DNA of 64,000 bases from positions 1-64,000 of the IMG/VR virus record IMGVR_UViG_3300045988_160394. One strand, given 5' to 3'. Both the position numbers and the translations under genes were made by a program. Positions 3,596-62,888 of this stretch are shown here, piece by piece. Under the pieces are notes generated by a model. It did not search any database and was not told the DNA's origin. It was given only the letters and a program-made list of their open reading frames with translations. The DNA comes from a virus. Within the stretch, counting starts at the first letter, position 1. Each line of letters begins with the position of its first letter.

Positions 3596-4210
3596 ATGAA
3601 ATTAGAGTTTAAAGGGCCTTTAATGGTTAATCCAGATCTTGTATTATTTTTTGAATTAAAAGAAAGAGAGTTATTTGATAATATTAAAAAGACTTATGTT
3701 TTAGATAAAGATAATGATTTTGAAGAAAAGTTTGTTGTTGAAGAAGGTAATTTTTTAAATCCTAAAACTTTTCGCAAAATTCCATCATTTATAGTTAAAA
3801 AGACTTCAAAATGTACAGAAGAAGATGTAGCTTACTTAAAAGGTTTATATGAAGTTGAAAAGAAAAAATATATAGTTAAAATAAAAAATCAATTATCAGA
3901 AGTACCTTTATCAGTAAGAGTAGAACAAAATAGCGATATTGTAGTTTATGTTGAAGAAGAATATTTTGAAAAAGTGAATGAAGTGCCTTATTTAGATTAT
4001 TCAGATAAGGATTTATATATAATAAGATTATCTAGCATTCTTCAAGATCATATAACACCTTTAAATAATGCTTTTAAAGGAAAGACATTGACTGAAGATA
4101 ATATTAATTCATATAAATCTTATTTAGAACTAGAATACAACAATAATATGTTAAATAAAATAAGAGAATTAATAGATACAACAATAGATTACAAAGTAGC
4201 AGTTAGTTAA
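3596..4210 (+). CDS. hypothetical protein (204 aa)
   Basis: AAGGAGAGAGG RBS; no motif. Confidence 0.6.
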   Translation: MKLEFKGPLMVNPDLVLFFELKERELFDNIKKTYVLDKDNDFEEKFVVEEGNFLNPKTFRKIPSFIVKKTSKCTEEDVAYLKGLYEVEKKKYIVKIKNQLSEVPLSVRVEQNSDIVVYVEEEYFEKVNEVPYLDYSDKDLYIIRLSSILQDHITPLNNAFKGKTLTEDNINSYKSYLELEYNNNMLNKIRELIDTTIDYKVAVS

Positions 4211-5790: not shown

Positions 5791-6057
5791 ATGAATGAAA
5801 ATATAAAACAATTATTAGATCATACGAAGAATTCTAAAGTTGCTAATGATAAAATACAAATAGTAACTAAGCATTATGTATATAATTTATCTAAAGATAG
5901 TAAAGTAAAAGTTGATTGGTCTAAAGGTATAGTCCTATTTACATTATCTCATCAAGTAGATAAACATTATAATATAGAGTTTTGTCCTATAATAACTTTA
6001 AAGCAAAAACAGGTATTAAGAGTATTATTAAATAATAGAGGTGAATGCAGTGCATAA
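5791..6057 (+). CDS. hypothetical protein (88 aa)
   Basis: GGAGGG RBS lies inside the upstream LLEGF codons; no motif. Confidence 0.5.
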   Translation: MNENIKQLLDHTKNSKVANDKIQIVTKHYVYNLSKDSKVKVDWSKGIVLFTLSHQVDKHYNIEFCPIITLKQKQVLRVLLNNRGECSA

Positions 6058-6349
6058 TGATTTTAATATAGGAGATATAGTAAGTTTTACTGAAGAAGCC
6101 AAAGATGTATATAGATATACTACTAAAGAATCTGGTTGCATAGGTAAAGTTATAAAAAAGAATAAAACATTATCTATAGAAATATTAGATATTTGTGATG
6201 AATATAAAAATGCAATTGGTGAAGAAGTAAATGGTATTAATCCTAGATATGTAGTATTTAAACAAAGTTATAAAAGTTACAAAGAAGAAAAAATAAACAA
6301 AAAGAAAAGTAATTTTAATTTAAACAATTTATTATTAAATGGTTTTTAA
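6050..6349 (+). CDS. hypothetical protein, paralog family B
   Basis: GTG 6050 sits 7 nt after AGAGGTG and gives MHNDFNIGDIVSF, matching the paralog N-termini; ORF-track start is 6041. Confidence 0.55.
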   Translation: MHNDFNIGDIVSFTEEAKDVYRYTTKESGCIGKVIKKNKTLSIEILDICDEYKNAIGEEVNGINPRYVVFKQSYKSYKEEKINKKKSNFNLNNLLLNGF

Positions 6350-14203: not shown

Positions 14204-15550
14204 ATGATTATAAAGTTACCTAAAGATGTTCAATTAATATTATCAGAATTAAATAATGCAGGATATAAAGCATATGTAGTTGGAGGTTGTATTAGAGATA
14301 GGCTGTTAGGATTAAGACCTAAAGACTGGGATGTAACAACTAATGCTACTCCTAAACAAATGATGAAAGTATTTAAAGGTTATAAAATAATACCTACAGG
14401 AATAAAACATGGTACTATAACTGTTATGATTAATAACGAAGGCTATGAAATAACAACTTTTAGAGCTGAATCGGAATATGATGAGCATAGAAGACCTGAG
14501 AAAGTTGTTTTTATAGATGATATTAAAGAAGATCTAGCTAGAAGAGATTTTACTATAAATGCAATAGCTTATCATCCAGAAGAAGGATTGATAGATCCAT
14601 TTAATGGAGCAGAAGATTTAGTATTAAAAAAGATAAAGACAGTAAGAAGATTTGGAGAAGAGATTAATGCTAGATTTATAGAGGACCCATTAAGAGCTTT
14701 TAGAGCATTTAGATTTGCTGCAAGATATGGGTTTGAAATATGTAGTGGTACATTAATAGCTATTGAATCTTTAGAAAAAGAAGATTTTAAATGTCTATCT
14801 AAAGAAAGAATTAGAGACGAAATTAGTAAAATAATATTACACAATCCTTTAATGTTAGATAGAATGAGTTTTAATATGTTAGACGTTGCATTCCCTGATT
14901 TAATATACAATCTATATGTAAAACAGAATCATCCTTATCATATATATAATGTATATGTTCATACCATAAAAGCAGTCATGGAATGTTATGATTCATTAGA
15001 ATTAAGATTAGCTGCATTACTTCATGATGTAGGAAAGAGAGATACTAAGACTGTAGATGATTCAGGGATTACTCATTTCTACGGACATCCTAAAAAATCT
15101 GCCGAGATGGCAGAAAAATATCTTAAAGAGTTAAGATATGATAATAAAACTGTAGAAAAGATTGTTACTGCAATAAAATATCATGATTGTGAATTAAATT
15201 CTAAAAAAGCTATTAAAAGAATAATTAGTAGAATAGGTATAGAAAATTTTGAATTATTATTAGATTTAAAGACTGTAGATATATTAGCTCAAAATCCTAA
15301 ATACAAAAAGGAAAGAATGTGTCAATTATGGGATGCAGTAGAGATATTAAATGAAATAAGAAGAAATAATGAATGTATAGGATTGAAAGACTTAGCTATT
15401 AAAGGTGGAGATTTAATAAAATTAGGTATGAAAGAAGGTCCTGAAATAGGTCAAATGTTATTTAAGCTATTAGATAAAGTATTAGAGAATCCTGAGCTTA
15501 ATAATAAAGATGATTTAATAAAGTTATATAATGAATTGAAAGATTTATAG
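14204..15550 (+). CDS. cca: CCA-adding tRNA nucleotidyltransferase with HD domain
   Basis: Pol-beta head GGCIRDRLLG..PKDWDVTT, RRDFTINA, and a C-terminal HD region (HP..H...LLHDVGK); 448 aa is typical. Confidence 0.9.
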   Translation: MIIKLPKDVQLILSELNNAGYKAYVVGGCIRDRLLGLRPKDWDVTTNATPKQMMKVFKGYKIIPTGIKHGTITVMINNEGYEITTFRAESEYDEHRRPEKVVFIDDIKEDLARRDFTINAIAYHPEEGLIDPFNGAEDLVLKKIKTVRRFGEEINARFIEDPLRAFRAFRFAARYGFEICSGTLIAIESLEKEDFKCLSKERIRDEISKIILHNPLMLDRMSFNMLDVAFPDLIYNLYVKQNHPYHIYNVYVHTIKAVMECYDSLELRLAALLHDVGKRDTKTVDDSGITHFYGHPKKSAEMAEKYLKELRYDNKTVEKIVTAIKYHDCELNSKKAIKRIISRIGIENFELLLDLKTVDILAQNPKYKKERMCQLWDAVEILNEIRRNNECIGLKDLAIKGGDLIKLGMKEGPEIGQMLFKLLDKVLENPELNNKDDLIKLYNELKDL

Positions 15551-49528: not shown

Positions 49529-49544
49529 TAAAGGAGTGTTTTTT

Positions 49545-49988
49545 ATGAATATAATAGAAGGATTTAGAGGGCAATATTATTTTCTATCTAATTTCTCTGA
49601 TAGTAAAATATGCTACAAAGGACATACATATAAAAATGGAGAAGCTGCTTTTCATTCTGAAAAGAATGGTTTTAGTGAATATAAAGAAAAGTTAGAAAAA
49701 GCAAATCCATCAGAAGCAAAGAAATTAGGAAGAAGAGTTAAACTTAGACCTGATTGGGAACAAGTTAAAGAAACTGTTATGCATGATATAGTTTATGCGA
49801 AATTTTCACAAAATGAAGATTTAAAAAGAAAGCTTTTAGCTACTGGCAATAAAATATTAATAGAAAGTAATACTTGGCATGATAACTATTGGGGAAACTG
49901 TATTTGTGCTAAATGCAAAAACAAATACGGTAAGAATATGCTAGGAATAACATTAATGAGAGTAAGAGAGGAATTGAAACAATGTTAG
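49545..49988 (+). CDS. NADAR (DUF1768/YbiA-like) family protein
   Basis: F.GQYYFLSNFS....Y.G..Y.NGEAAFHSEK....A..LGRRVKLRPDWE..K...M..IVYAKF.QN..L...LL.TG...L.E...HD.YWG is the NADAR signature. Confidence 0.8.
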   Translation: MNIIEGFRGQYYFLSNFSDSKICYKGHTYKNGEAAFHSEKNGFSEYKEKLEKANPSEAKKLGRRVKLRPDWEQVKETVMHDIVYAKFSQNEDLKRKLLATGNKILIESNTWHDNYWGNCICAKCKNKYGKNMLGITLMRVREELKQC

Positions 49989-50236
49989 CAATGTTTGCTT
50001 TTAGAGTAATGTTGATACTTATTTTGATATTAGCTTTTATAATAATATCAAATGTTATATTTGAAAGAAGAAAACAAAAAAGAAAATGGAATAATGGATA
50101 TTGTCCTGAATGTAAGGGACAATGGCTTTTATTAGAAAAATACAACAATGAAAATAGATATGTTTGTGAAAATAATAATGCACATAGATGTATTATAACT
50201 TACGAAGATATAGATAGAAAAAGAGAAGAAGGTTAA
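49982..50236 (+). CDS. membrane-anchored zinc-ribbon protein
   Basis: N-terminal TM helix; CPECKG ... CENNNAHRC. Confidence 0.5.
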   Translation: MLAMFAFRVMLILILILAFIIISNVIFERRKQKRKWNNGYCPECKGQWLLLEKYNNENRYVCENNNAHRCIITYEDIDRKREEG

Positions 50237-50254
50237 TATAGCCTTCTTTTTTTT
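50226..50254 (+). terminator. Rho-independent terminator
   Basis: AAGAAGG / CCTTCTT stem, 9-nt loop, TTTTTT tail. Confidence 0.65.
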
Positions 50255-50295
50255 GTACATATAAGAGGAAATTTATATTAAAGGAGATTATTGAT

Positions 50296-51636
50296 ATGGC
50301 AACTAAATGTATAAAAATAGCTTTTGATTTTGCAAAAGATAATACTATAGATAAAAAAGATTTTTATAAAGAATTAAGAGATATAAATTATAAAACATGG
50401 TTGGCTTGTAATAGAGCTATTACTTACTTTTATACTAACGATATGCAGAATATGGTTCAAAAAGATATTGGTATTCCTAAACAAGATGATAAAGAACTGT
50501 TTGGAAAAAGTTTCGGAGCTTGGGTAGAAAACAGAATGAATGAGTTAATGGAAGGATGTTTATCTACTAATGTAGCTCAAACAAGACAATTTGTTGCTAA
50601 TAGATATGCTCAAGATAAAAAGAATGGGCTATTTAAAGGTCAAGTATCTTTAACTCAATTTAAAAAAGATATACCAATAATAGTTCATAATAAAGCTTAT
50701 AATATTATAGATACTGATAAAGGATTAGGTGTAGAAGTAAGTCTTTTTAATAAAGAAAAACAGAAAGAATTAAACGTTAAAAAGATTAAATTAGTATTTC
50801 CTAAATTAGATGGATCTTCTAAAGCTACGCTAATTAAAATAATGGATAAAACTTATAAACAAGGTTCAATACAAATAACTTATAATGAAAGAAAAAGAAA
50901 ATGGATGATGATTATAAGTTATACTTTTGAAGCTATTAAAGATGAAACATTAAATGAAGATATTACATTAGGAATAGATTTAGGTATAGTTAATGTGGCT
51001 ACTATGTCTTTATATGATTCTAAAAATAATAGTTTTAATAGCATAGCTTGGAAAGAAAGAATTATACCAGGGGATGAGCTTATACATTATAGACAAAAGA
51101 TAGAAGCTAGAAGAAAATCTTTATATATAGCTACTAAATGGTCTAGTGATAATGCTTCAGGCCATGGTTATAAAAGAAAAACAAAGACAGCTAATAAAAT
51201 AAGTGATAAGTATTCAAGATTTAGAGATACTTATAATCATAAGATATCTAGATATATAGTAGATTTAGCTATTAAACATAAAGCTAAGAATATACAAATG
51301 GAAGACTTAAGTGGTTTTTCAGATTATCAATCAGAAAGTTTATTAGCTAACTGGAGTTACTACGATCTTCAACAAAAGATAAAATATAAAGCCGAAGGAA
51401 AAGGTATTAATGTTATATTCATTAATCCACAATATACTTCTAAAAGATGTAGTAAATGTGGTAATATACACGAAGAGAATAGAGATTGTAAAAACAATCA
51501 GGCTAAATTCGAATGTATAGTATGCGGTCATAAAGAGAATGCAGATATAAATGCTAGTAAGAATATAGCTATACCACAAATTGATACTGTAATAAAAGAA
51601 TATATAAAAGATAAAAAAGAGGCTGCTATAAGTTAG
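50296..51636 (+). CDS. cas12f: miniature RNA-guided nuclease, Cas12f-type (TnpB-derived), 446 aa
   Basis: RuvC-I GIDLG (D228, nt 50977-50979), RuvC-II IQMEDL (E336, 51301-51303), zinc ribbon YTSKRCSKCG...CIVCG, RuvC-III NADINASKNIA (D417, 51544-51546). From memory, the C-terminal 220 aa run collinear with Firmicute Cas12f1 proteins (..FRDT.NH..SRYIVD.AIK.....IQMEDL...NW.YYDLQQKI.YKAE..GI.V..I.PQYTS.RCS.CG). Confidence 0.85.
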   Translation: MATKCIKIAFDFAKDNTIDKKDFYKELRDINYKTWLACNRAITYFYTNDMQNMVQKDIGIPKQDDKELFGKSFGAWVENRMNELMEGCLSTNVAQTRQFVANRYAQDKKNGLFKGQVSLTQFKKDIPIIVHNKAYNIIDTDKGLGVEVSLFNKEKQKELNVKKIKLVFPKLDGSSKATLIKIMDKTYKQGSIQITYNERKRKWMMIISYTFEAIKDETLNEDITLGIDLGIVNVATMSLYDSKNNSFNSIAWKERIIPGDELIHYRQKIEARRKSLYIATKWSSDNASGHGYKRKTKTANKISDKYSRFRDTYNHKISRYIVDLAIKHKAKNIQMEDLSGFSDYQSESLLANWSYYDLQQKIKYKAEGKGINVIFINPQYTSKRCSKCGNIHEENRDCKNNQAKFECIVCGHKENADINASKNIAIPQIDTVIKEYIKDKKEAAIS

Positions 51637-51717
51637 TAGTCTCTTTAGCTATATTTAAAGACCGTAGGGCAGGAAGAACTATATCTAAAAATGGAATGAT
51701 AGAATTGGTTATAAAAT

Positions 51718-51856
51718 AAAGGTTGATTTACCAGCCTAAAGATGAGATAGTGATTTCTATTAGAAATAATACTCTCATTAAACGCTCCAACTAGATTGGT
51801 AAAAGGCTAGTGCAAAACAATAATATTATTGGGCGTGTACTAGGATATAGCTTTTG
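51718..51856 (+). ncRNA. tracrRNA/omegaRNA-like structured RNA, copy 1
   Basis: Nested stems TTTACCA(51727-33)/TGGTAAA(51797-803) and ATGAGA(51742-47)/TCTCAT(51773-78); conserved in copy 2 with compensatory changes; ends in CTTTTG. Strand and ends are inferred. Confidence 0.55.
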
Positions 51857-52018
51857 TTAATATTTAATAAAATGATTTAAATATAAGGGTTTAATATTAA
51901 CATAAGATGTATTTAAATTTAAACAATCTATGTGTAGGACAGTTCCTGTACTAAGTTTAATATTAACATAGGATGTATTTAAATGTAGAATCAATATTAG
52001 CATAAGGTATATTTTAAT
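51855..52018 (+). CRISPR. mini CRISPR-like array 1
   Basis: Two 30-nt repeats, GTTTAATATTAACATAAGATGTATTTAAAT (51889-51918) and the same with one mismatch (51955-51984), separated by 36 nt. Degenerate repeat copies flank them at 51855-51882 and 51989-52018. Confidence 0.5.
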
Positions 52019-52081
52019 TTACTCCAAGTAGTTCATTATAAAAGCATATTTAATGACTTTCAATATAATTTATAAAAAGAT

Positions 52082-52246
52082 AAAGGGTGTTTTACCATCC
52101 TAAAAGTGAGAAAGTGATTTTGGAAACGGCTTAAATGATAAGCTTAAAATAAATTTAATACTCTCACTAAACGCTCCAATAAAGTTATTGGTAAAAAGCT
52201 AGTGCAAAATGATTAAATTCAGGCGTGTACTAGAATACATTTTTTA
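52082..52246 (+). ncRNA. tracrRNA/omegaRNA-like structured RNA, copy 2
   Basis: Homologous to copy 1 with a roughly 25-nt larger variable loop; stems TTTACCA(52091-97)/TGGTAAA(52189-95) and AGTGAGA(52105-11)/TCTCACT(52162-68); ends in a small hairpin plus TTTTTATT. Confidence 0.55.
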
Positions 52247-52277
52247 TTAAAGTAAACGGATTGGCTTAAATATACTG

Positions 52278-52338
52278 GTTGAACTTTAACAAGAATTGTA
52301 TTTAAAGATGTGCTCTTTTGGCACTAATGTATTTAAAG
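52278..52338 (+). CRISPR. degenerate CRISPR-like unit 2
   Basis: GTTGAACTTTAACAAGAATTGTATTTAAAG (about 22/30 identity to the array-1 repeat), then 20 nt (ATGTGCTCTTTTGGCACTAA), then an 11-nt repeat 3' fragment TGTATTTAAAG. Confidence 0.35.
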
Positions 52339-52382
52339 AAATATTAATTAAGATTTGATATTGATATATATGTTAAAATAAA

Positions 52383-52408
52383 TACTCTTCCCAATTGAGG
52401 GAAGAGTA
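52383..52408. other. GC-containing hairpin closing the non-coding locus
   Basis: TACTCTTCCC / GGGAAGAGTA stem with AATTGA loop; no T-run on the + strand (an A-run lies upstream), so its terminator role is unclear. Confidence 0.35.
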
Positions 52409-52426
52409 AAGTTAAAGGAGATTTTT

Positions 52427-52993
52427 ATGATATTGTATCATGTAAGTGAAAATTTGAACAATTATATTGATGTTTTCTATCCAAGAATACCATCTGAAGA
52501 TAGAATGTGTCTAGGAGAAAATATTTCCATAAAAAGAGTATGCGTATCATCAAATATAGCTGGAGCTTTTTCTGCTATGCCAAGAGAAGATGATATAGCT
52601 AATAAGAAGTTTAGAGTATATGAATTTGAATTAGACGAAAAAGATAAAGATTTATTAGATTATAAAACAATATATAATAGAAATTATGTTCAAGATAGTT
52701 TATGTACTAAAGAACATTGGATATTAAAAAATATTAAGCCATCAAGGCATTATGATATAATAGTAAAAAGTTATGATAATGAATTGATACCTGTTTTACG
52801 TAAAGATTTATGGAAAACTTATTTTAATACATACGCAGATGATCAAGATGCTTTCTTAGAGAAAAACGGTGGCTTTTTAATGTCAGCTTTTAAAAAAGTA
52901 TTTTATATAAAAGATAATGTCGAATTTATATCTGAAAATGATATATATGAATATTTAAATTATGATAGGAGTGATATTAATGGTTTATATTAA
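52427..52993 (+). CDS. hypothetical protein (188 aa)
   Basis: AAAGGAG RBS; no motif recognised. Confidence 0.55.
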   Translation: MILYHVSENLNNYIDVFYPRIPSEDRMCLGENISIKRVCVSSNIAGAFSAMPREDDIANKKFRVYEFELDEKDKDLLDYKTIYNRNYVQDSLCTKEHWILKNIKPSRHYDIIVKSYDNELIPVLRKDLWKTYFNTYADDQDAFLEKNGGFLMSAFKKVFYIKDNVEFISENDIYEYLNYDRSDINGLY

Positions 52994-53207
52994 AGTTTAT
53001 GATAGATATATAAACAAGCCAATAGATCAATTTAAATTAAATATAAATGCAGAAAAGCTTTCAGTTGGAGATCGTATTATTTGTAATAAAAAGAATGGTA
53101 CATCAGAAGAGTATAGGATTAAATCAATACGCCATGAAATAGCATTTGAAGGCGGATATGAAGAAGATGTAGCTGCATATAAAAAAACAATAATAGAAGT
53201 AAATTAA
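52980..53207 (+). CDS. hypothetical protein
   Basis: ATG 52980 is 7 nt after TAGGAGTG (ORF-track start 52962). Confidence 0.5.
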   Translation: MVYIKVYDRYINKPIDQFKLNINAEKLSVGDRIICNKKNGTSEEYRIKSIRHEIAFEGGYEEDVAAYKKTIIEVN

Positions 53208-53233: not shown

Positions 53234-54466
53234 ATGAGCCGTAAATATTGTACAAGAAACGCTTGTGAAAACGAAAAATTAATAGATAAATGTACATGTT
53301 GTTTCGATTGTGATCTTATTGGAGAATGTGAAGCAGAAGTTAAATGTATCATAAGAACAAAGGACAATTATATGGATTGTCCTTTTATAGGAAAAAGAAT
53401 TAATGAAGGGGAGACTACTATGAATAAAATAAATGATTTACCTAAGGTTGGAGTATTCTTTGGTAAGATGATACCACCTCACAGAGGACATTTAACAGCT
53501 ATTATTAATGCAGCTACTAGATGTCAAAAACTTTATGTTGTAGTAAGTGATAATAAACATACAACAGAAGAAATATGCAGAGAATCAGGTATAAAAAATA
53601 TACCTGTAGAATTAAGAATTCAATGGCTATGTCAAGAGCTTCAAGACTTAGATCATATTAAAGTTGTTGCTCTTGATGAAACACATATACCTGCATATCC
53701 TAATGGATGGGATGAATGGTGTGATTTAATGAGAAAGGCTGTTAAAGAAGATATTGATACTTTCTTTTGTGGAGAAGAAGAATATTGTAAGCAATTAAAA
53801 GAGCATTTCCCAGGTTCAGATGTAATTCTATTTGATCCACAAAGAAATACTTATAATATAAGTGCTACTACAATAAGAACTAATCCTCAAAAACATTGGG
53901 ATCATATATTAGGACCTGCTAGACCATTCTTTGCTAAGAGAGTATTAATAGCAGGGACTGAAAGTACAGGGAAGACTACAATGGTTAAGTACTTAGCTAA
54001 ATTATATAATACTTCATGGTCAGAAGAAGTAGGAAGATATTATGCTTCTAAATTCCTAGGAGGAAATGAAGAAATTTTTACTGATGAAGATTTTACTAGA
54101 ATAGCATATCAACAAATAGAACAAGATTACGCAGCTCTTAGAAGTTGTAATAGAGTTTGTTTCTTTGATACTGATCCAACAGTTACTCAATACTATTCTA
54201 CTTTATATATGGGGCATAAAAACCTTGAAGTAGAATCAGCTATTAATCCAACTAAATATGATATTGTTATATTATTAAAACCAGATGTTGAATGGGTTGA
54301 TGATGGACAAAGATTAAATGGTGATCAAGAAAAAAGAGAAGAATTACACAATAGATTAAAATATATGTATCTTGAAAGAGGTTTTAAGAACGTTGTTGAA
54401 GTATCTGGAGATTATAATGAAAGATTAACAGCTATTATAAATATTGTTGATGATTTATTAAAGTAA
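53234..54466 (+). CDS. nadR: NadR-type bifunctional NMN adenylyltransferase / ribosylnicotinamide kinase, with Cys-rich N-terminal extension and no HTH domain
   Basis: Nucleotidyltransferase motif GVFFGKMIPPHRGH...VVVSD, ISATTIR, then Walker A IAGTESTGKTT plus EEVGRYY and a D..P..T..Y region typical of the RNK domain. Confidence 0.85.
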   Translation: MSRKYCTRNACENEKLIDKCTCCFDCDLIGECEAEVKCIIRTKDNYMDCPFIGKRINEGETTMNKINDLPKVGVFFGKMIPPHRGHLTAIINAATRCQKLYVVVSDNKHTTEEICRESGIKNIPVELRIQWLCQELQDLDHIKVVALDETHIPAYPNGWDEWCDLMRKAVKEDIDTFFCGEEEYCKQLKEHFPGSDVILFDPQRNTYNISATTIRTNPQKHWDHILGPARPFFAKRVLIAGTESTGKTTMVKYLAKLYNTSWSEEVGRYYASKFLGGNEEIFTDEDFTRIAYQQIEQDYAALRSCNRVCFFDTDPTVTQYYSTLYMGHKNLEVESAINPTKYDIVILLKPDVEWVDDGQRLNGDQEKREELHNRLKYMYLERGFKNVVEVSGDYNERLTAIINIVDDLLK

Positions 54467-59526: not shown

Positions 59527-60258
59527 ATGGATAAGTTTCAGATTAAGATATTAAACCCAGAAGAAGTAAAGACATTATTTAAACGTTGAGGGACGTTCGC
59601 ATGTAAATGTTATGACACTCCTGCTAAATATGCAGAAAGAGTTGGTAAATCATGCTTACAATCAGGACACTTTTCAGGATCAAGAAGTATATATATAGAA
59701 ATAGATGTTAGTAATGTACCTAGAGCTCTTGTAGATCAAATAATAAGAAGAGAACAAGGATGCGTTAAAAACGTTGAATCTGGTAGATATGTAGATTTCT
59801 CAGATTTTGATTATTATACTTCACCATTAATAGCTAATGATCCAATAGCTAAAGAGATATATGATGAACACATGAAAGCTACTAGAGAAGTTTATTCTTT
59901 ATTAGTTAAAAGATTAAATGAAAAAGGGATAACTGGTGAAAGAGCCTTTGAAGCAGCTAGAGGAGTTGCTCCTATGAACTATAGAACAGGTATGGTTCTA
60001 GGATTAACATTAGAAGCTTTAATAGGCTTATGTCATGAAAGATTATGTAGTAGAACTCAAGAACATTCTAGACATTTAATCAAGATGATAAGAGATGAGG
60101 TTCTAAAGCTTATACCTGAGTTAGAGCCATATTTAGTAGTGAAATGTGATTATCTACAATGGTGTCCAGAAGGAAGTAAATGTTGTGGTAGAAAACCAAC
60201 TAGAAAAGAATTCTTAGAATTTATTGATTCTAATAAAGTTAAAGGGAGTGTTAAGTAA
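59527..60258 (+). CDS. thyX: flavin-dependent thymidylate synthase ThyX with in-frame TGA (59587-59589)
   Basis: ATG after AGGAGG; the frame is continuous with ORF-track 59872-60258 if TGA is read; ..SGHFSGSRS.., ThyX-motif-like RREQGCVKNVESGRY, ..ARGVAPMNYRT.. helical region. Confidence 0.7.
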
Positions 60259-62888
60259 TGGCAAAGAATATAGTATTTAATTCAGATGCAAGAGAAAAGA
60301 TAAGACAAGGTGTCAATGTATTAGGAGATGCTGTTAGAGCAACTATGGGACCTAAAGGTAGAAATGCTATCTTAGAAAGAACACCTGGTTCTCCATTAAT
60401 AACTAACGATGGAGTTACTATAGCTAAAGAAATAGAATTAATAGACAATATAGAAAATATGGGAGCTCAAATAGTAAAAGAAGCAGCTATTAAGACTAAT
60501 GATGAGGCAGGAGATGGGCCACAACCTTTATATTCTAAAATATTAACACCTAATGGTTGGACTACTATGGGTGAAATAAAAAAAGGTGATGTTATATGTG
60601 GTACAAATAATACTCATCAAACAGTATTAGAAGTTTATCCTAAAGGGAAAAAAGAATTGGTTATAATTACATTCTCTAATGGCAAACAAGTTCATTGCTG
60701 TCAAGATCATTTATGGACTATAAATACAAGCTATGGAAAAAGAAAAACCATGACAACAAGAGAAATGATAAACAAAGGCGTATACAAACTTAATAGCCAA
60801 GGTGATAAAAGATATAATTTCTATACACCTTCTAACACAGTAGAGTTTCAAGAAAAAGAATTACCGATACATCCATACCTTTTAGGTGCTCTATTAGGAG
60901 ATGGCTCATTAACTGGGACAGGGAATATAGAATTAAGCTTAGGATATAATAAAGAGCACATAATAGAAAAAATATATCCGATATTACCTGACAATATACA
61001 AATATCAATACAGGATTGTTTAGACAAGAATTGTTATAGAGTCAAATTTTCAAAAATAGATAAAACTAATCCTATTTCTATGGAAAGTTTACTTAATGAA
61101 TTAAATCTATTAGGAACTAATAGTAAAAATAAATTTATACCTGAAATTTATTTATATAATTCAGTTGAAAATAGAACACAATTGTTAAATGGTTTAATAG
61201 ATACAGATGGATATAACAATAATAGAGGATTGTTTGAATTTTCTACTGTTAGCGATAAACTTAATGAATCCTTCACAGAATTAGTTAATAGCTTAGGAAT
61301 TCAAACATCATATACTTTACACAAAAGAGATAATGACTTATTATCTTATTCTTTCAATCCTATTCATAGACATACTCAATTAAAAGGTTATAAATATGGA
61401 ATAAAAATAGTAGATATTGAAGTTGTTAATAAACTAGAAGAAATGAAATGTATAAAAGTATCAAATCAAGATAATTTATATATAACAGATGGATATATAG
61501 TAACACACAACACTACTACAGCTACAGTTTTAGCACAAGCAATCATAAATGAAGGTTATAATGCTCTTTCTACAACTGAAGATGTTTCAGAAGAAGAAAA
61601 GAATCAATCTATATACAAAGGTGCCAATCCTGTTTTATTAAAGAAAGGTATAGAAATAGCTACTAAAATAGCAATAGATGAATTAAAAGCTATAGCTAAG
61701 CCTATAGAAACAGATGAAGAAATAAAACAAATAGCAACTATATCTTCTGCTAGTGATGATATAGGAGAATTAATATCTCAAGCTATTAAAAGAGTAGGTA
61801 AAGACGGTATAATTACTACTACTGAATCACATACTATAGAAACTACTTTAGAAGTTAAAGAAGGTTTTGAATTTGACAGAGGTTTTTATTCACCTTACTT
61901 TGCTGATGATCAAGAAAAAATAGAATCTGTTTTTTATAATCCATTAATACTTGTAAGTGATCAAAAGATGAGAACTCAACAAGAAATAGTACCTTTATTA
62001 GAACAAGTGTTAAAAGTTCAAAGACCTATAGTGTTTATAGTTGATGAAATAGAACAAATCGTATTCTCTTCTTTATTAAGAAATAAAATGAATGGGAATA
62101 TGGATGTAGCAGTAATAAAAGCACCTGGATTTGGGGCAAAAAGAAAAGAGCTATTACAAGATATAGCTATTTTAACAGGAGCAACTTTTATATCTGAAGA
62201 ATACGCTTTAACTATGTCAGAAGCTAGAATAAACTTATTAGGTTCATGCGAGTCTATAAAGATAACTAAAAATAATACTATTATATTTAATGGTTCTGGA
62301 GATAAAGAAGAAATAAATAAAAGAGCAGAACACATTAAGAATAGTATTAATGCTGATAATATATCAGAATACGATAAAGAAAAACTAGAAGAAAGATTAG
62401 CTAAAATAACAGGTGGTATAGCTACTATAAAAATAGGAGCTGCTACAGAGCCTGAATTAAAAGAGAAAAAGTTAAGAATAGAAGATGCTATTAATGCCAC
62501 TAAAGCAGCTATAGAAGAAGGAATAGTTGCAGGTGGTGGAACAGCTTTATTTAATCTTTCACCAGTAATATTAGAAAAGACTAAAAACTTAGTAGGAGAT
62601 GTATATCAAGGAGCATTATGTGTAGCATTAGCTGTTAATTCTCCAATAATACAAATAGCTATGAATGCAGGTGTAAATGCTACTAAGGTTATGGAAAATG
62701 TTTTAAAGACAGCTAAAGAAAAAAGCAATCCTAATATAGGATATGATGCTTATAATGATGCTTATGTTGATATGTTAGAAGTAGGAATAATAGATCCTGT
62801 AAAAGTTACTAGAAATGCATTACAAAATGCAGCTTCAGTAGCTGCTATACTGTTAACAACAGATGTAACTATAAGCAACTTTCAATAA
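60258..62888 (+). CDS. groEL: chaperonin GroEL (Cpn60) precursor interrupted by an intein
   Basis: Exteins (87 + 458 aa) carry GroEL signatures: AR....GV..L.DAV..T.GPKGRN, ITNDGVTIAKEIEL, AGDG|TTTATVLA, GGG.ALF, IIDP.KVTR.ALQNAASVA. TAATG overlap with thyX. Confidence 0.95.
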   Translation: MAKNIVFNSDAREKIRQGVNVLGDAVRATMGPKGRNAILERTPGSPLITNDGVTIAKEIELIDNIENMGAQIVKEAAIKTNDEAGDGPQPLYSKILTPNGWTTMGEIKKGDVICGTNNTHQTVLEVYPKGKKELVIITFSNGKQVHCCQDHLWTINTSYGKRKTMTTREMINKGVYKLNSQGDKRYNFYTPSNTVEFQEKELPIHPYLLGALLGDGSLTGTGNIELSLGYNKEHIIEKIYPILPDNIQISIQDCLDKNCYRVKFSKIDKTNPISMESLLNELNLLGTNSKNKFIPEIYLYNSVENRTQLLNGLIDTDGYNNNRGLFEFSTVSDKLNESFTELVNSLGIQTSYTLHKRDNDLLSYSFNPIHRHTQLKGYKYGIKIVDIEVVNKLEEMKCIKVSNQDNLYITDGYIVTHNTTTATVLAQAIINEGYNALSTTEDVSEEEKNQSIYKGANPVLLKKGIEIATKIAIDELKAIAKPIETDEEIKQIATISSASDDIGELISQAIKRVGKDGIITTTESHTIETTLEVKEGFEFDRGFYSPYFADDQEKIESVFYNPLILVSDQKMRTQQEIVPLLEQVLKVQRPIVFIVDEIEQIVFSSLLRNKMNGNMDVAVIKAPGFGAKRKELLQDIAILTGATFISEEYALTMSEARINLLGSCESIKITKNNTIIFNGSGDKEEINKRAEHIKNSINADNISEYDKEKLEERLAKITGGIATIKIGAATEPELKEKKLRIEDAINATKAAIEEGIVAGGGTALFNLSPVILEKTKNLVGDVYQGALCVALAVNSPIIQIAMNAGVNATKVMENVLKTAKEKSNPNIGYDAYNDAYVDMLEVGIIDPVKVTRNALQNAASVAAILLTTDVTISNFQ
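60519..61511 (+). mobile_element. intein (331 aa) with LAGLIDADG homing-endonuclease domain; class-3-like W/C/T signature
   Basis: Inserted between G87 and T of the DG|TTT loop. Block A-like PQPLYSKILTPNGW; block B ..QDHLW (W, nt 60714-60716); LAGLIDADG motifs LLGALLGDGSL and LNGLIDTDGY; block F MKCIKV (C, nt 61449-61451); block G GYIVTHN followed by +1 Thr. Confidence 0.85.

What the first reader, a model, noticed from the sequence alone, without database searches (positions are those of the whole stretch)
51718..52246. Two copies of a structured RNA supported by compensatory base changes
Copy 1 (51718-51856) and copy 2 (52082-52246) share conserved blocks: AAAGG.TG.TTTACCA.CCTAAA..TGAGA.AGTGATTT, AATACTCTCA.TAAACGCTCCAA, TTGGTAAAA.GCTAGTGCAAAA and GGCGTGTACTAG.ATA. 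They are separated by a variable loop of 11 versus about 36 nt. Two nested helices are preserved. The outer helix is TTTACCA/TGGTAAA in both copies. The inner helix is GATGAGA/TCTCATT in copy 1 and AGTGAGA/TCTCACT in copy 2. Here A51742-T51778 becomes G52106-C52167, and G51741-T51779 (wobble) becomes A52105-T52168. Covariation between paralogous copies argues for selection on RNA structure rather than on coding or a protein-binding site.
Basis: seen in the sequence. Interest (0 to 1): 0.7.

Follow-up and report, generated by a model that had tools for sequence, protein, structure and literature searches.

The report
Two tracrRNAs of a phage Cas12f
The two structured RNA copies are most likely paralogous tracrRNAs of a miniature Cas12f CRISPR nuclease carried by a large Clostridium-type phage; each sits in front of its own tiny CRISPR array, whose repeats look like those of bacterial type I-B systems.

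Summary
Copies 51718-51856 and 52082-52246 align at 82% identity. The inner helix is kept by compensatory changes in both copies and across about 40 related sequences.

The RNA lies just downstream of a 446-aa Cas12f1 gene of the V-U3 clade (50296-51636), whose nuclease motifs are intact. Each copy is followed by a mini CRISPR array. The RNAs meet three sequence-testable criteria for Cas12f tracrRNAs:
- They are on the same strand as cas12f, next to arrays, in every relative found.
- A 3' long anti-repeat pairs with the copy's own repeat.
- The loop of the 5' hairpin pairs with the last 4-6 nt of the cognate repeat, and this co-varies across 19 distinct loop/repeat combinations (0 of 10,000 permutations).

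Two local hairpins, the short anti-repeat and an internal pseudoknot explain those bases better.

The repeats match Rfam CRISPR-DR3. Repeat 1 is 28/30 identical to a chromosomal repeat that sits next to cas6-cas8b. Protospacers of relatives lie in C. perfringens phage and Clostridium plasmid DNA, with a 5'-TYA flank.

This is a known kind of system. The less usual features are two diverged tracrRNA-array modules per effector and type I-B-type repeats. Expression was not tested.

The parts
50296..51636 (+). cas12f1 gene (446 aa, V-U3 / type V-F1 clade; annotated elsewhere as 'TnpB family' or 'transposase')
   Evidence: PADLOC Cas12u3 4e-119 and Cas12f 2e-118, both full length. PDB matches: AsCas12f1 8J12 at 4.5e-69 over residues 9-438, and 1e-106 with the family profile; OsCas12f 9NZQ. 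Pfam Cas12f1-like_TNB and OrfB_IS605. D228, E336 and the CxxC..CxxC motif are invariant, and D417 is conserved in at least 90% of 24 homologues.
51616..51646 (+). Terminator-like hairpin overlapping the cas12f stop codon
   Evidence: 13-bp stem plus a T-rich tail; 4 such sites found against 0.5 expected. This is a consensus match only.
51700..51705 (+). -10-like box TAGAAT about 14 nt upstream of tracrRNA-1. The equivalent TATAAT lies at 52064-52069 upstream of tracrRNA-2.
   Evidence: Both boxes sit in register in direct repeat D3. This is an inference; the promoter scan did not list either box as a promoter-like site.
51714..51869 (+). tracrRNA-1. Hairpin 1 at 51720-51737, with its loop (the short anti-repeat ATTTAC) at 51726-51731. 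Helix 2 pairs 51741-47 with 51773-79. Pseudoknot pairs ACGCT 51782-86 with GGCGT 51832-36. Hairpin 3 at 51787-51799. Helix 4 pairs 51807-13 with 51837-43. Hairpin 5 at 51818-51831. Long anti-repeat at about 51843-51868.
   Evidence: CM hit of 143 bits. Pair counts. Anti-repeat:repeat duplex of -15.9 kcal/mol. Loop:repeat-end pairing.
51889..52018 (+). CRISPR array 1: repeat 51889-51918, spacer 51919-51954 (36 nt), repeat 51955-51984, degenerate repeat 51989-52018
   Evidence: Direct-repeat families D1 and D2. Rfam CRISPR-DR3 at 42.7 and 42.2 bits against a gathering score of 41. Repeat and spacer boundaries.
52078..52258 (+). tracrRNA-2. Hairpin 1 at 52084-52101, with its loop (the short anti-repeat TTTTAC) at 52090-52095. 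Helix 2 pairs 52105-11 with 52162-68 and has a 50-nt apical insert. Pseudoknot pairs 52171-75 with 52222-26. Hairpin 3 at 52176-52191. Helix 4 pairs 52199-205 with 52227-33. Long anti-repeat at about 52233-52257.
   Evidence: CM hit of 158.8 bits. Duplex with repeat 2 of -16.4 kcal/mol. Coordinates read.
52278..52338 (+). CRISPR array 2 (decayed): repeat 52278-52307, a 20-nt truncated spacer 52308-52327, and the last 11 nt of a repeat at 52328-52338
   Evidence: Rfam CRISPR-DR3 at 42.7 bits. Partial repeat is family D11. The spacer is itself a hairpin followed by a T-rich tail. The same arrangement is kept in relative L126.

Best explanation
The two copies are paralogous trans-activating CRISPR RNAs (tracrRNAs) of a phage-borne type V-F1 CRISPR-Cas12f1 system.

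Shown by sequence analysis:
- The upstream gene encodes a Cas12f1 of the V-U3 clade with an intact RuvC triad and zinc ribbon.
- Each RNA has a conserved scaffold of five nested helices plus an internal pseudoknot.
- Each RNA has two elements complementary to the CRISPR repeat that follows it 20-45 nt downstream. One is a long anti-repeat at the 3' end, which pairs with repeat positions about 1-26. The other is a short anti-repeat in the loop of the 5' hairpin, which pairs with the last 5 nt of the repeat, immediately 5' of the spacer.

Inferred by analogy with AsCas12f1:
- Each tracrRNA is transcribed from its own promoter, possibly as one transcript with its array, because only 22-29 nt separate the anti-repeat from the first repeat.
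- It pairs with the repeat-spacer RNA.
- A Cas12f dimer binds this dual RNA.
- The complex cuts DNA that matches the spacer next to a 5' PAM. In four protospacers of relatives that flank is 5'-TYA.

The likely function is to attack competing plasmids and phages in the same Clostridium host. The repeats are of the host type I-B kind, so spacers are probably acquired through a host I-B adaptation module.
For: - **Protein.** Full-length matches to Cas12u3/Cas12f profiles and to AsCas12f1 and OsCas12f structures, with conserved catalytic residues.
- **RNA.** All covariance-model hits lie on the cas12f strand, directly downstream or a few hundred nt upstream of the gene. Covariation is strong in all helices, including a pseudoknot the model did not contain (81% paired, 5 of 5 pairs with double changes). 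Frequent G.U pairs fix the strand.
- **Arrays.** Nearly every hit is followed by a CRISPR array with 64-68 nt periodicity.
- **Long anti-repeat.** It follows helix 4 and tracks even unrelated repeats: L054b GAATTTATACTAT:ATAGTATAAATT, L002 CTATAACCTT:AAGGTATAG, and 19 bp in L004.
- **Short anti-repeat.** Across 19 distinct loop/repeat-end combinations, cognate pairs average 4.95 contiguous bp against 3.47 for non-cognate pairs, and 0 of 10,000 permutations reach that. This is the architecture reported for AsCas12f1: a long R/AR stem plus a 5-7 bp short R/AR pseudoknot (PMC11246509). The AsCas12f1 sgRNA sequence shows the same pattern, with 5' hairpin loop GTTCAG and repeat end TGAAC.
- **Differences between the two window modules.** Loop A to U goes with repeat-end U to G. 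In the long duplex, T-A becomes C-G and A-T becomes T-A.
- **Activity.** Phages with Cas12f 99% and 96% identical keep both modules but carry different spacers. One of those spacers matches a C. perfringens plasmid at 34/35, and spacers of L043 match phage phiSM101 and plasmids at 100%.
Against: - There is no transcript evidence for either RNA. The promoter call rests only on a -10-like box.
- Primary-sequence similarity to the one characterised relative tested (the AsCas12f1 sgRNA) is not significant (z = -0.6 and 3.3).
- No Rfam family matches the scaffold.
- The window's own spacers have no detectable target.
- Array 2 is truncated, and its 20-nt 'spacer' folds as a terminator-like hairpin, so module 2 may be decaying or may serve another purpose.
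- The two modules are not cleanly orthogonal. tracr1 pairs with repeat 2 as well as with repeat 1 (-16.2 vs -15.9 kcal/mol).
- The main covariation alignment was fitted to the model structure.
Confidence: 0.9

Rival explanations
1. The RNAs are omega-RNAs (reRNAs) of an IS200/IS605 TnpB transposon nuclease. In that case the scaffold would be followed directly by a fixed guide at the transposon's right end.
For: NCBIfam names the protein 'guided_TnpB' (160 bits, above the cut-off of 100), whereas Cas12f2 scores below its own cut-off. Public records annotate homologues as transposase or TnpB. Module 2 and loci L015 and L127 have only one repeat plus one fixed 'guide'.
Against: - The RNA starts about 80 nt after the stop codon rather than overlapping the gene's 3' end.
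- In many loci it lies upstream of the gene.
- It is followed by CRISPR repeats to which it is complementary at two sites.
- Spacers differ between near-identical phages.
- The protein matches Cas12f/V-U3 profiles full length at 1e-119.
- There is only one copy of the gene in the window. No tnpA was identified among the neighbouring ORFs scanned.
Confidence: 0.03
2. The arrays are phage-borne type I-B mini-arrays that simply exploit the host Cascade. The structured RNAs would then be unrelated leader or regulatory elements, and Cas12f/TnpB would be a bystander.
For: The repeats match Rfam CRISPR-DR3. Repeat 1 is 28/30 identical to a chromosomal array next to cas6-cas8b. Spacers are 34-38 nt and protospacer flanks are TCA or TTA, as reported for clostridial I-B systems (PMC4860712). 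Huge phages with host-like repeats are known (PMC7162821).
Against: The RNA, the array and cas12f co-occur in dozens of loci with many different repeat families. Both anti-repeat elements of the RNA change in step with the repeat. A leader element has no reason to do that. Use by the host Cascade in addition to Cas12f is not excluded.
Confidence: 0.04
3. Module 2 (tracrRNA-2 plus the single repeat) is a decaying remnant with no current function. Only module 1 would be active.
For: Array 2 has one repeat, a 20-nt truncated spacer and an 11-nt repeat fragment. The spacer forms a hairpin. In L126 the apex of helix 2 in copy 2 is deleted and the spacer region has indels.
Against: The tracrRNA-2 scaffold scores higher than copy 1 against the model (158.8 vs 143 bits). 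It keeps every helix, the pseudoknot and both anti-repeats matched to repeat 2. The module is retained in all three related phages. A 20-nt guide is a workable length: the published AsCas12f1 sgRNA construct carries a 20-bp guide. The apical part of helix 2 is variable across the whole family.
Confidence: 0.2

Closest known systems
AsCas12f1 (Acidibacillus sulfuroxidans) type V-F1 CRISPR-Cas system and its tracrRNA:crRNA (PDB 8J12, 7WJU, 8DZJ)
   Same: - The protein aligns over its full length (residues 9-438 against 16-432 of the chain; E 4.5e-69) with the GIDLG, QMEDL and NADxNA motifs and the zinc ribbon conserved.
- The RNA shares the same logic: a 5' hairpin with a 6-bp stem and 6-nt loop, whose loop pairs with the last 5 nt of the repeat; several internal stems; and a 3' long anti-repeat.
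- The tracrRNA is encoded next to cas12f on the same strand.
- No cas1 or cas2 was identified among the ORFs scanned around the locus.
   Different: - There is no significant primary-sequence similarity between the RNAs, and the order of internal stems is not obviously the same.
- The element here is phage-borne.
- There are two diverged tracrRNA-array modules per effector.
- The repeats are AT-rich and of the type I-B kind.
- Protospacer flanks of relatives are TYA (three TCA, one TTA), which is not uniformly the NTTR PAM reported for AsCas12f1.
Clostridial type I-B CRISPR arrays (Rfam RF01316 CRISPR-DR3; C. pasteurianum and C. tetani systems)
   Same: 30-nt repeats of the form GTT..AACA..GTATTTAAAT, 34-38 nt spacers, the same transcription polarity, and 5'-TCA/TTA protospacer flanks. 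Repeat 1 is 28/30 identical to a repeat that sits next to cas6-cas8b.
   Different: The window has no cas6, cas8b, cas7, cas5, cas3, cas1 or cas2 next to the arrays. The arrays hold only 1-2 repeats and are each preceded by an RNA complementary to the repeat, which type I systems do not have.
TnpB omega-RNA (IS200/IS605) and TranC transposon-CRISPR intermediates
   Same: The protein belongs to the TnpB/Cas12 superfamily. The RNA scaffold contains a pseudoknot and lies on the gene's strand. The tracrRNA and first repeat are close enough (a 22-29 nt loop) to act as one guide RNA.
   Different: The guide comes from a CRISPR array. The RNA does not overlap the gene. No transposon features were seen. 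LaTranC matches only the C-terminal RuvC/zinc-finger part, at E 8e-12.
CRISPR systems of huge phages (Al-Shayeb et al. 2020, PMC7162821)
   Same: The element is a large phage: related contigs are 257-264 kb. It carries a compact type V effector, very short arrays and host-like repeats, has no adaptation genes among the ORFs scanned near the locus, and its relatives carry spacers against other mobile elements.
   Different: That study did not describe tracrRNAs for these systems, a pair of diverged tracrRNA-array modules, or matching of the anti-repeat to type I-B repeats, as far as the text searched shows.

Membership tests
Type V-F1 (Cas12f1, V-U3 clade) effector | Full-length similarity to Cas12f1/V-U3 profiles and to solved Cas12f1 structures | tested here: met
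   PADLOC Cas12u3 4.1e-119 (residues 1-438) and Cas12f 1.9e-118. AsCas12f1 at 4.5e-69 with the single sequence and 1e-106 with the profile; OsCas12f at 2.5e-96. Caveat: NCBIfam places it only in the general guided_TnpB model, and Cas12f2 scores below its cut-off.
Type V-F1 (Cas12f1, V-U3 clade) effector | Intact RuvC D-E-D triad and C-terminal zinc ribbon | tested here: met
   D228, E336, C385, C388, C407 and C410 are invariant, and D417 is conserved in at least 90% of 24 homologues. These residues align with the AsCas12f1 motifs.
Type V-F1 (Cas12f1, V-U3 clade) effector | A CRISPR array adjacent to the effector gene | tested here: met
   Arrays at 51889-52018 and 52278-52338. Arrays are also present next to the homologues.
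Type V-F1 (Cas12f1, V-U3 clade) effector | RNA-guided, PAM-dependent cleavage of double-stranded DNA by a protein dimer | not testable with these tools
   This needs biochemistry. The only indirect evidence is four protospacers of relatives with a 5'-TYA flank.
Cas12f1 tracrRNA | A non-coding RNA gene next to cas12f and the array, on the same strand | tested here: met
   All covariance-model hits are on the cas12f strand, within about 1 kb of the gene. No ORF of 40 aa or more lies on the + strand across either copy.
Cas12f1 tracrRNA | A long anti-repeat complementary to the CRISPR repeat | tested here: met
   51843-51868 pairs with repeat 1 (-15.9 kcal/mol) and 52233-52257 pairs with repeat 2 (-16.4 kcal/mol). 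The anti-repeat follows unrelated repeats in L002, L054b, L053 and L004.
Cas12f1 tracrRNA | A short repeat/anti-repeat stem of 5-7 bp forming a pseudoknot with the 3' end of the repeat (PMC11246509) | tested here: met
   The hairpin-1 loop is complementary to the last 4-6 nt of the cognate repeat in 19 distinct combinations, and 0 of 10,000 permutations reach the observed value. Physical formation of the stem was not tested.
Cas12f1 tracrRNA | Sequence or model-level homology to a characterised Cas12f tracrRNA | tested here: inconclusive
   Local alignment to the AsCas12f1 sgRNA gives z = -0.6 for copy 1 and 3.3 for copy 2. No Rfam family matches the scaffold.
Cas12f1 tracrRNA | The RNA is expressed, base-pairs with crRNA and is bound by Cas12f | not testable with these tools
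   No transcriptome data are available. Only a conserved -10-like box and an upstream terminator-like hairpin bear on this.
TnpB omega-RNA (IS200/IS605) | The RNA overlaps the 3' end of tnpB and ends at the transposon's right end, with the guide taken from flanking DNA | tested here: not met
   The RNA starts about 80 nt after the stop codon, lies upstream of the gene in many loci, and is followed by CRISPR repeats.
Type I-B CRISPR repeat family (Rfam CRISPR-DR3) | The repeat reaches the Rfam gathering score | tested here: met
   42.7, 42.7 and 42.2 bits against a gathering score of 41.
Type I-B CRISPR repeat family (Rfam CRISPR-DR3) | The repeat type is associated with type I-B cas genes | tested here: met
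   L128 has 8 repeats GATTAATATTAACATGAGATGTATTTAAAT immediately upstream of cas6 (TIGR01877, above its cut-off) and cas8b/Csh1 (99.5 bits against a cut-off of 104). The window itself has no I-B genes near the arrays.

The most novel reading that the evidence does not exclude
The phage's Cas12f tracrRNAs are tuned, through both anti-repeat elements, to the repeat types of host type I-B CRISPR systems. A class 2 phage nuclease would thereby plug into a class 1 host system.

It could use host Cas1-Cas2-Cas4 to load spacers into the phage mini-arrays. It might even load crRNAs transcribed from the host's own I-B arrays. The two diverged tracrRNA modules would then let one effector read two different repeat families. 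The recurrence of dual modules with different repeats in other elements (L054, L013, L005, L061) would reflect this.
Probability: 0.3. Interest if true: 0.75.

Novelty: new variant of a known kind. Interest (0 to 1): 0.45.

Why it matters
Type V-F1 systems lack Cas1 and Cas2, and how they obtain spacers is an open question. A 2024 preprint noted that V-F1 and I-B systems co-occur and have similar PAMs, and proposed shared adaptation (10.1101/2024.04.09.587696).

This locus and its relatives add concrete sequence evidence on that question:
- The repeats are nearly identical to a repeat that sits next to I-B cas genes.
- Spacers are of I-B length.
- Protospacer flanks are TYA.
- The tracrRNA's two anti-repeat elements co-evolve with whichever repeat family the array uses.

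The locus also provides a compact natural system: a 446-aa nuclease with two alternative guide scaffolds of about 150 nt. It shows that a single Cas12f can be paired with two diverged tracrRNAs, which may be useful for guide-RNA engineering. The covariance model and alignment could seed a new RNA family for annotating 'TnpB/transposase' genes that are really CRISPR effectors.

Tried and rejected
- **Phage DNA search.** blastn of the locus against the INPHARED phages found no match. Relatives came from plasmids, genome contigs, IMG/VR and Logan contigs instead.
- **Rfam.** A permissive scan of 50000-53000 found only CRISPR-DR3 for the repeats and chance-level hits for the scaffold.
- **First duplex test.** A broad tail-versus-repeat duplex-energy test across 31 modules was noisy, because repeat boundaries were loose, sequences are AT-rich and many repeats are alike. 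I replaced it with curated duplexes and the loop/repeat-end test.
- **AsCas12f1 sgRNA alignment.** Not significant.
- **Self-targeting.** Neither window spacer has a match in the window, allowing up to 3 mismatches.
- **Targets of the window spacers.** None were found in phages, plasmids (spacer 1 only), IMG/VR or metagenome contigs.
Rejected on pair counts.
- **AGCCT/AGGCT helix.** I considered this pairing by eye. It is not kept in copy 2 or in the C. baratii copies.
- **Second effector.** ORF 14204-15550 (448 aa) is unrelated to Cas12f and is a tRNA nucleotidyltransferase.
- **Weak model hit.** The hit at 62718-62848 (E 0.85) lies inside a GroEL-like ORF and is chance.
Full report
**1. The observation.**

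Copy 1 (51718-51856) and copy 2 (52082-52246) align at 82% column identity. They share the listed conserved blocks, and the variable stretch is 11 nt in copy 1 and 36 nt in copy 2.

The inner helix and its two changes are exact: G51741.T51779 becomes A52105-T52168, and A51742-T51778 becomes G52106-C52167. TTTACCA and TGGTAAA are complementary in both copies.

**2. Context.**

Both copies lie in an 790-nt intergenic region (51637-52426) on the + strand. The region is directly downstream of ORF 50296-51636 (446 aa). That protein has these matches:
- Pfam Cas12f1-like_TNB and OrfB_IS605.
- NCBIfam guided_TnpB.
- PADLOC Cas12u3 at 4e-119 and Cas12f at 2e-118, both full length.
- Solved AsCas12f1 structures at 4.5e-69 (1e-106 with a family profile), then OsCas12f, SpCas12f1-like, CnCas12f and Un1Cas12f. 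LaTranC matches only weakly.

The RuvC D/E/D residues and the zinc ribbon are conserved. So the gene is a Cas12f1 of the V-U3 / type V-F1 clade, although public records call its homologues 'transposase' or 'TnpB'.

Each RNA copy is followed by a small CRISPR array:
- Array 1 has repeats at 51889-51918 and 51955-51984 around a 36-nt spacer, then a degenerate repeat.
- Array 2 has a single repeat at 52278-52307, then a 20-nt truncated spacer and an 11-nt repeat fragment.

All three full repeats reach the Rfam gathering score for CRISPR-DR3.

The window otherwise looks like part of a jumbo phage. It encodes a tail fibre protein, tRNA nucleotidyltransferase, NAD-dependent ligase, a GroEL-like protein, NMN adenylyltransferase and Nudix proteins, and the ORFs that match known families are all on the + strand. 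The two closest Cas12f proteins (99% and 96% identical) are on 257-kb and 264-kb contigs.

**3. Relatives and RNA structure.**

The protein has 607 homologues at E<=1e-20. I fetched 121 related loci from plasmids, genome contigs (Clostridium, Sarcina and others) and IMG/VR viral contigs.

A covariance model built from five RNA copies found 47 hits at E<1 in the window plus L001-L099. It found more hits in L100-L121 and L125-L127. Every hit is on the cas12f strand, either just downstream or a few hundred nt upstream of the gene.

On the 47-sequence alignment:
- 92% of cells are paired, against 33-39% for slid controls.
- 29 of 30 pairs show changes on both sides.
- 0 of 500 shuffles reach the observed values.

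Because that alignment was fitted to the model, I also ran MAFFT + RNAalifold on 19 sequences. It independently recovered hairpin 1, helix 4 and hairpin 5, with 14 of 17 pairs compensatory.

A pseudoknot that was not in the model is 81% paired, with double changes at all five pairs. It joins ACGCT 51782-86 to GGCGT 51832-36, the two most conserved blocks.

The outer helix is not: only 69-75% of cells are paired, many cells are unpaired, and there are almost no double changes. Its bases belong to hairpin 1 (AGGTTG/CAGCCT) and hairpin 3 (CCAA/TTGG), both 96% paired with many double changes. Frequent G.U pairs in the helices show that the + strand is the folded strand.

**4. Why this is a tracrRNA.**

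- **Arrays follow the RNA.** Almost every RNA hit is followed within a few tens to a few hundred nt by a CRISPR array with 64-68 nt periodicity. The repeat families differ widely: I-B-like GTT..AACA..GTATTTAAAT, GTTACAAT..GTAAG, I-C-like ..GGGTTGAAAC, and GTCTCCCCCGCGTGTGCGGGGATGGACC.

- **Long anti-repeat.** The sequence directly 3' of helix 4 is complementary to the cognate repeat.
  - In the window, 51843-51868 pairs with repeat 1 (-15.9 kcal/mol) and 52233-52257 pairs with repeat 2 (-16.4 kcal/mol).
  - In loci with unrelated repeats the anti-repeat has changed to match: L054b GAATTTATACTAT:ATAGTATAAATT, L002 CTATAACCTT:AAGGTATAG, L053 AGAATACAACTT:AAGTTGTATT, and 19 bp in L004.

- **Short anti-repeat.** Published work on AsCas12f1 describes a crRNA:tracrRNA duplex made of a long R/AR stem plus a pseudoknot containing a 5-7 bp short R/AR stem (PMC11246509).
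  - In the published AsCas12f1 sgRNA sequence, the loop of the 5' hairpin (GTTCAG) is complementary to the repeat's end (TGAAC).
  - The same holds here. Loop ATTTAC (51726-31) matches the end of repeat 1 (TAAAT), and loop TTTTAC (52090-95) matches the end of repeat 2 (TAAAG).
  - Across the family the loop tracks the repeat end: ATTCT:AGAAT, TTCCA:TGGAA, ATTCA:TGAAT, GGTCC:GGACC, ACTCAC:GTGAGT, TGTGA:TCACA, TTTCA:TGAAA, ATAGT:ACTAT.
  - For 19 distinct loop/repeat-end combinations, the cognate mean is 4.95 contiguous pairs against 3.47 for non-cognate pairs, and 0 of 10,000 permutations reach that.

- **The two window modules differ by compensatory changes at both contacts.** Loop A to U goes with repeat-end U to G. 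In the long duplex, T-A becomes C-G and A-T becomes T-A.

**5. Are the systems active, and against what?**

The 99%- and 96%-identical phages keep the order tracr1-array1-tracr2-array2 but carry different spacers in array 1. One of them has five spacers.

Spacer matches found:
- The array-1 spacer of L126 matches a C. perfringens plasmid at 34/35.
- Spacers of L043 match the tape-measure gene of C. perfringens phage phiSM101 and related phage-plasmids, and a plasmid replication gene, all at 100%.
- A spacer of L012 matches a C. botulinum plasmid at 94%.

The four distinct protospacers all have a 5'-TYA flank: three TCA and one TTA. No target was found for the window's own spacers.

**6. The type I-B connection.**

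Repeat 1 is 28/30 identical to an 8-repeat chromosomal array that sits directly upstream of cas6 and cas8b. Clostridial I-B systems have 30-nt repeats, about 36-nt spacers and TCA/TTA/TAA PAMs (PMC4860712).

A preprint has already reported that V-F1 systems co-occur with I-B systems and have similar PAMs, and proposed that V-F1 borrows the I-B adaptation module (10.1101/2024.04.09.587696). Phage-borne V-F/V-U systems without adaptation genes, and phage arrays with host-like repeats, are also known (PMC7162821). The data here fit that idea and add the co-evolution of the tracrRNA with the repeat. They do not prove shared adaptation.

**7. Two modules.**

The two window tracrRNAs are 74% identical to each other. 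That is about as far apart as each is from tracrRNAs of other elements (71-78%). Repeats 1 and 2 share 22 of 30 positions. So the copies are old paralogues or separately acquired modules, not a recent duplication.

Dual tracrRNA-array modules recur in other loci: C. baratii plasmid pNPD11_1 (one on each side of the gene), L054, L013, L005 and L061/L108. The two modules often use different repeats. In L054 the pairing is clearly module-specific.

In the window the modules are only partly specific. tracr2 with repeat 1 gives -12.5 against a cognate -16.4 kcal/mol, and tracr1 with repeat 2 gives -16.2 against -15.9 kcal/mol. I found no paper describing two tracrRNAs for a Cas12 effector in the library searched.

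Module 2 may be decaying. Its array is truncated, and the 20-nt spacer forms a terminator-like hairpin. However, its scaffold is fully intact and is retained in all three phages.

**8. Mechanism: shown versus inferred.**

Shown:
- The effector family and its intact catalytic motifs.
- The conserved RNA fold.
- The two complementarities to the repeat, and their co-variation with it.
- The arrays, and spacer turnover between near-identical phages.
- Protospacers in phage and plasmid DNA with a 5'-TYA flank.

Inferred:
- Transcription from a -10-like box (TAGAAT at 51700-05 and TATAAT at 52064-69, which sit in register), after a terminator-like hairpin at the end of cas12f.
- Possible co-transcription with the array, since only 22-29 nt separate the anti-repeat from the first repeat.
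- Binding by a Cas12f dimer and PAM-dependent DNA cleavage.
- A role in competition with plasmids and other phages.

**9. Verdict.**

The finding is real, and it is explained by a known kind of system: the tracrRNA of a type V-F1 CRISPR-Cas12f. It shows a less usual architecture, with two diverged tracrRNA-array modules and type I-B-type repeats on a jumbo phage. This tracrRNA family has no model in Rfam. Interest is moderate.

Noticed in passing
L127:505-545 (- strand), metagenome contig OGUL01007581.1: In this relative the tracrRNA starts about 10 nt after what looks like the 3' end of a tRNA gene (..GGTTCGAATCC..CACTCCGCCA). It is followed by a single repeat only. A tRNA-tracrRNA fusion could supply a promoter and a processing site.
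   Followed up: no
window 52308-52327: The 20-nt truncated spacer of array 2 is itself a hairpin (GTGCT-CTTTT-GGCAC) followed by a T-rich stretch, so it resembles an intrinsic terminator. It is conserved, with one G-to-A change and a 4-nt insertion, in the phage whose Cas12f is 99% identical (L126:4968-4991).
   Followed up: partly
L126:4782-4896: In this close relative, copy 2 of the tracrRNA has lost almost the whole apical part of helix 2 (GTGAG-TTAATAA-TCTCAC). The window has a 50-nt insert there. That region is therefore dispensable and varies across the family.
   Followed up: partly
window 52383-52408: A strong 10-bp GC-containing hairpin (TACTCTTCCCAATTGAGGGAAGAGTA) lies between array 2 and the next ORF. 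The T-run is on the - strand side only, although no substantial ORF lies nearby on the - strand.
   Followed up: no
L010:3774-3811 and 3842-3879: Two adjacent spacers in this Clostridium ihumii array are identical (GGAAGATGGACCATCCAGTTACTTCCCACTTTTATTGT). This points to a repeat-spacer duplication.
   Followed up: no
window 49536-49988 and 53234-54466: The Cas12f locus is flanked by genes related to NAD metabolism or ADP-ribose handling. The counterpart of the upstream ORF in L125 and L126 carries Pfam NADAR. The downstream ORF is a 410-aa NMN adenylyltransferase-like protein (PHROG 3462, 2e-105), and Nudix ORFs lie further on. These could be counter-defence or NAD-salvage functions.
   Followed up: no
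window 60258-62888: An 876-aa ORF combines a C-terminal GroEL-like part (residues 419-874, 2e-142) with an N-terminal P-loop part that hits terminase-large-subunit, DnaC and primase families. This is an unusual fusion, or an inserted element.
   Followed up: no
L001:4016-4390 and 5793-6160 (C. baratii plasmid pNPD11_1): Two almost identical tracrRNA copies, each with its own array and different spacers, flank the cas12f gene, one on each side. The record annotates none of this and calls the gene a TnpB family protein.
   Followed up: partly
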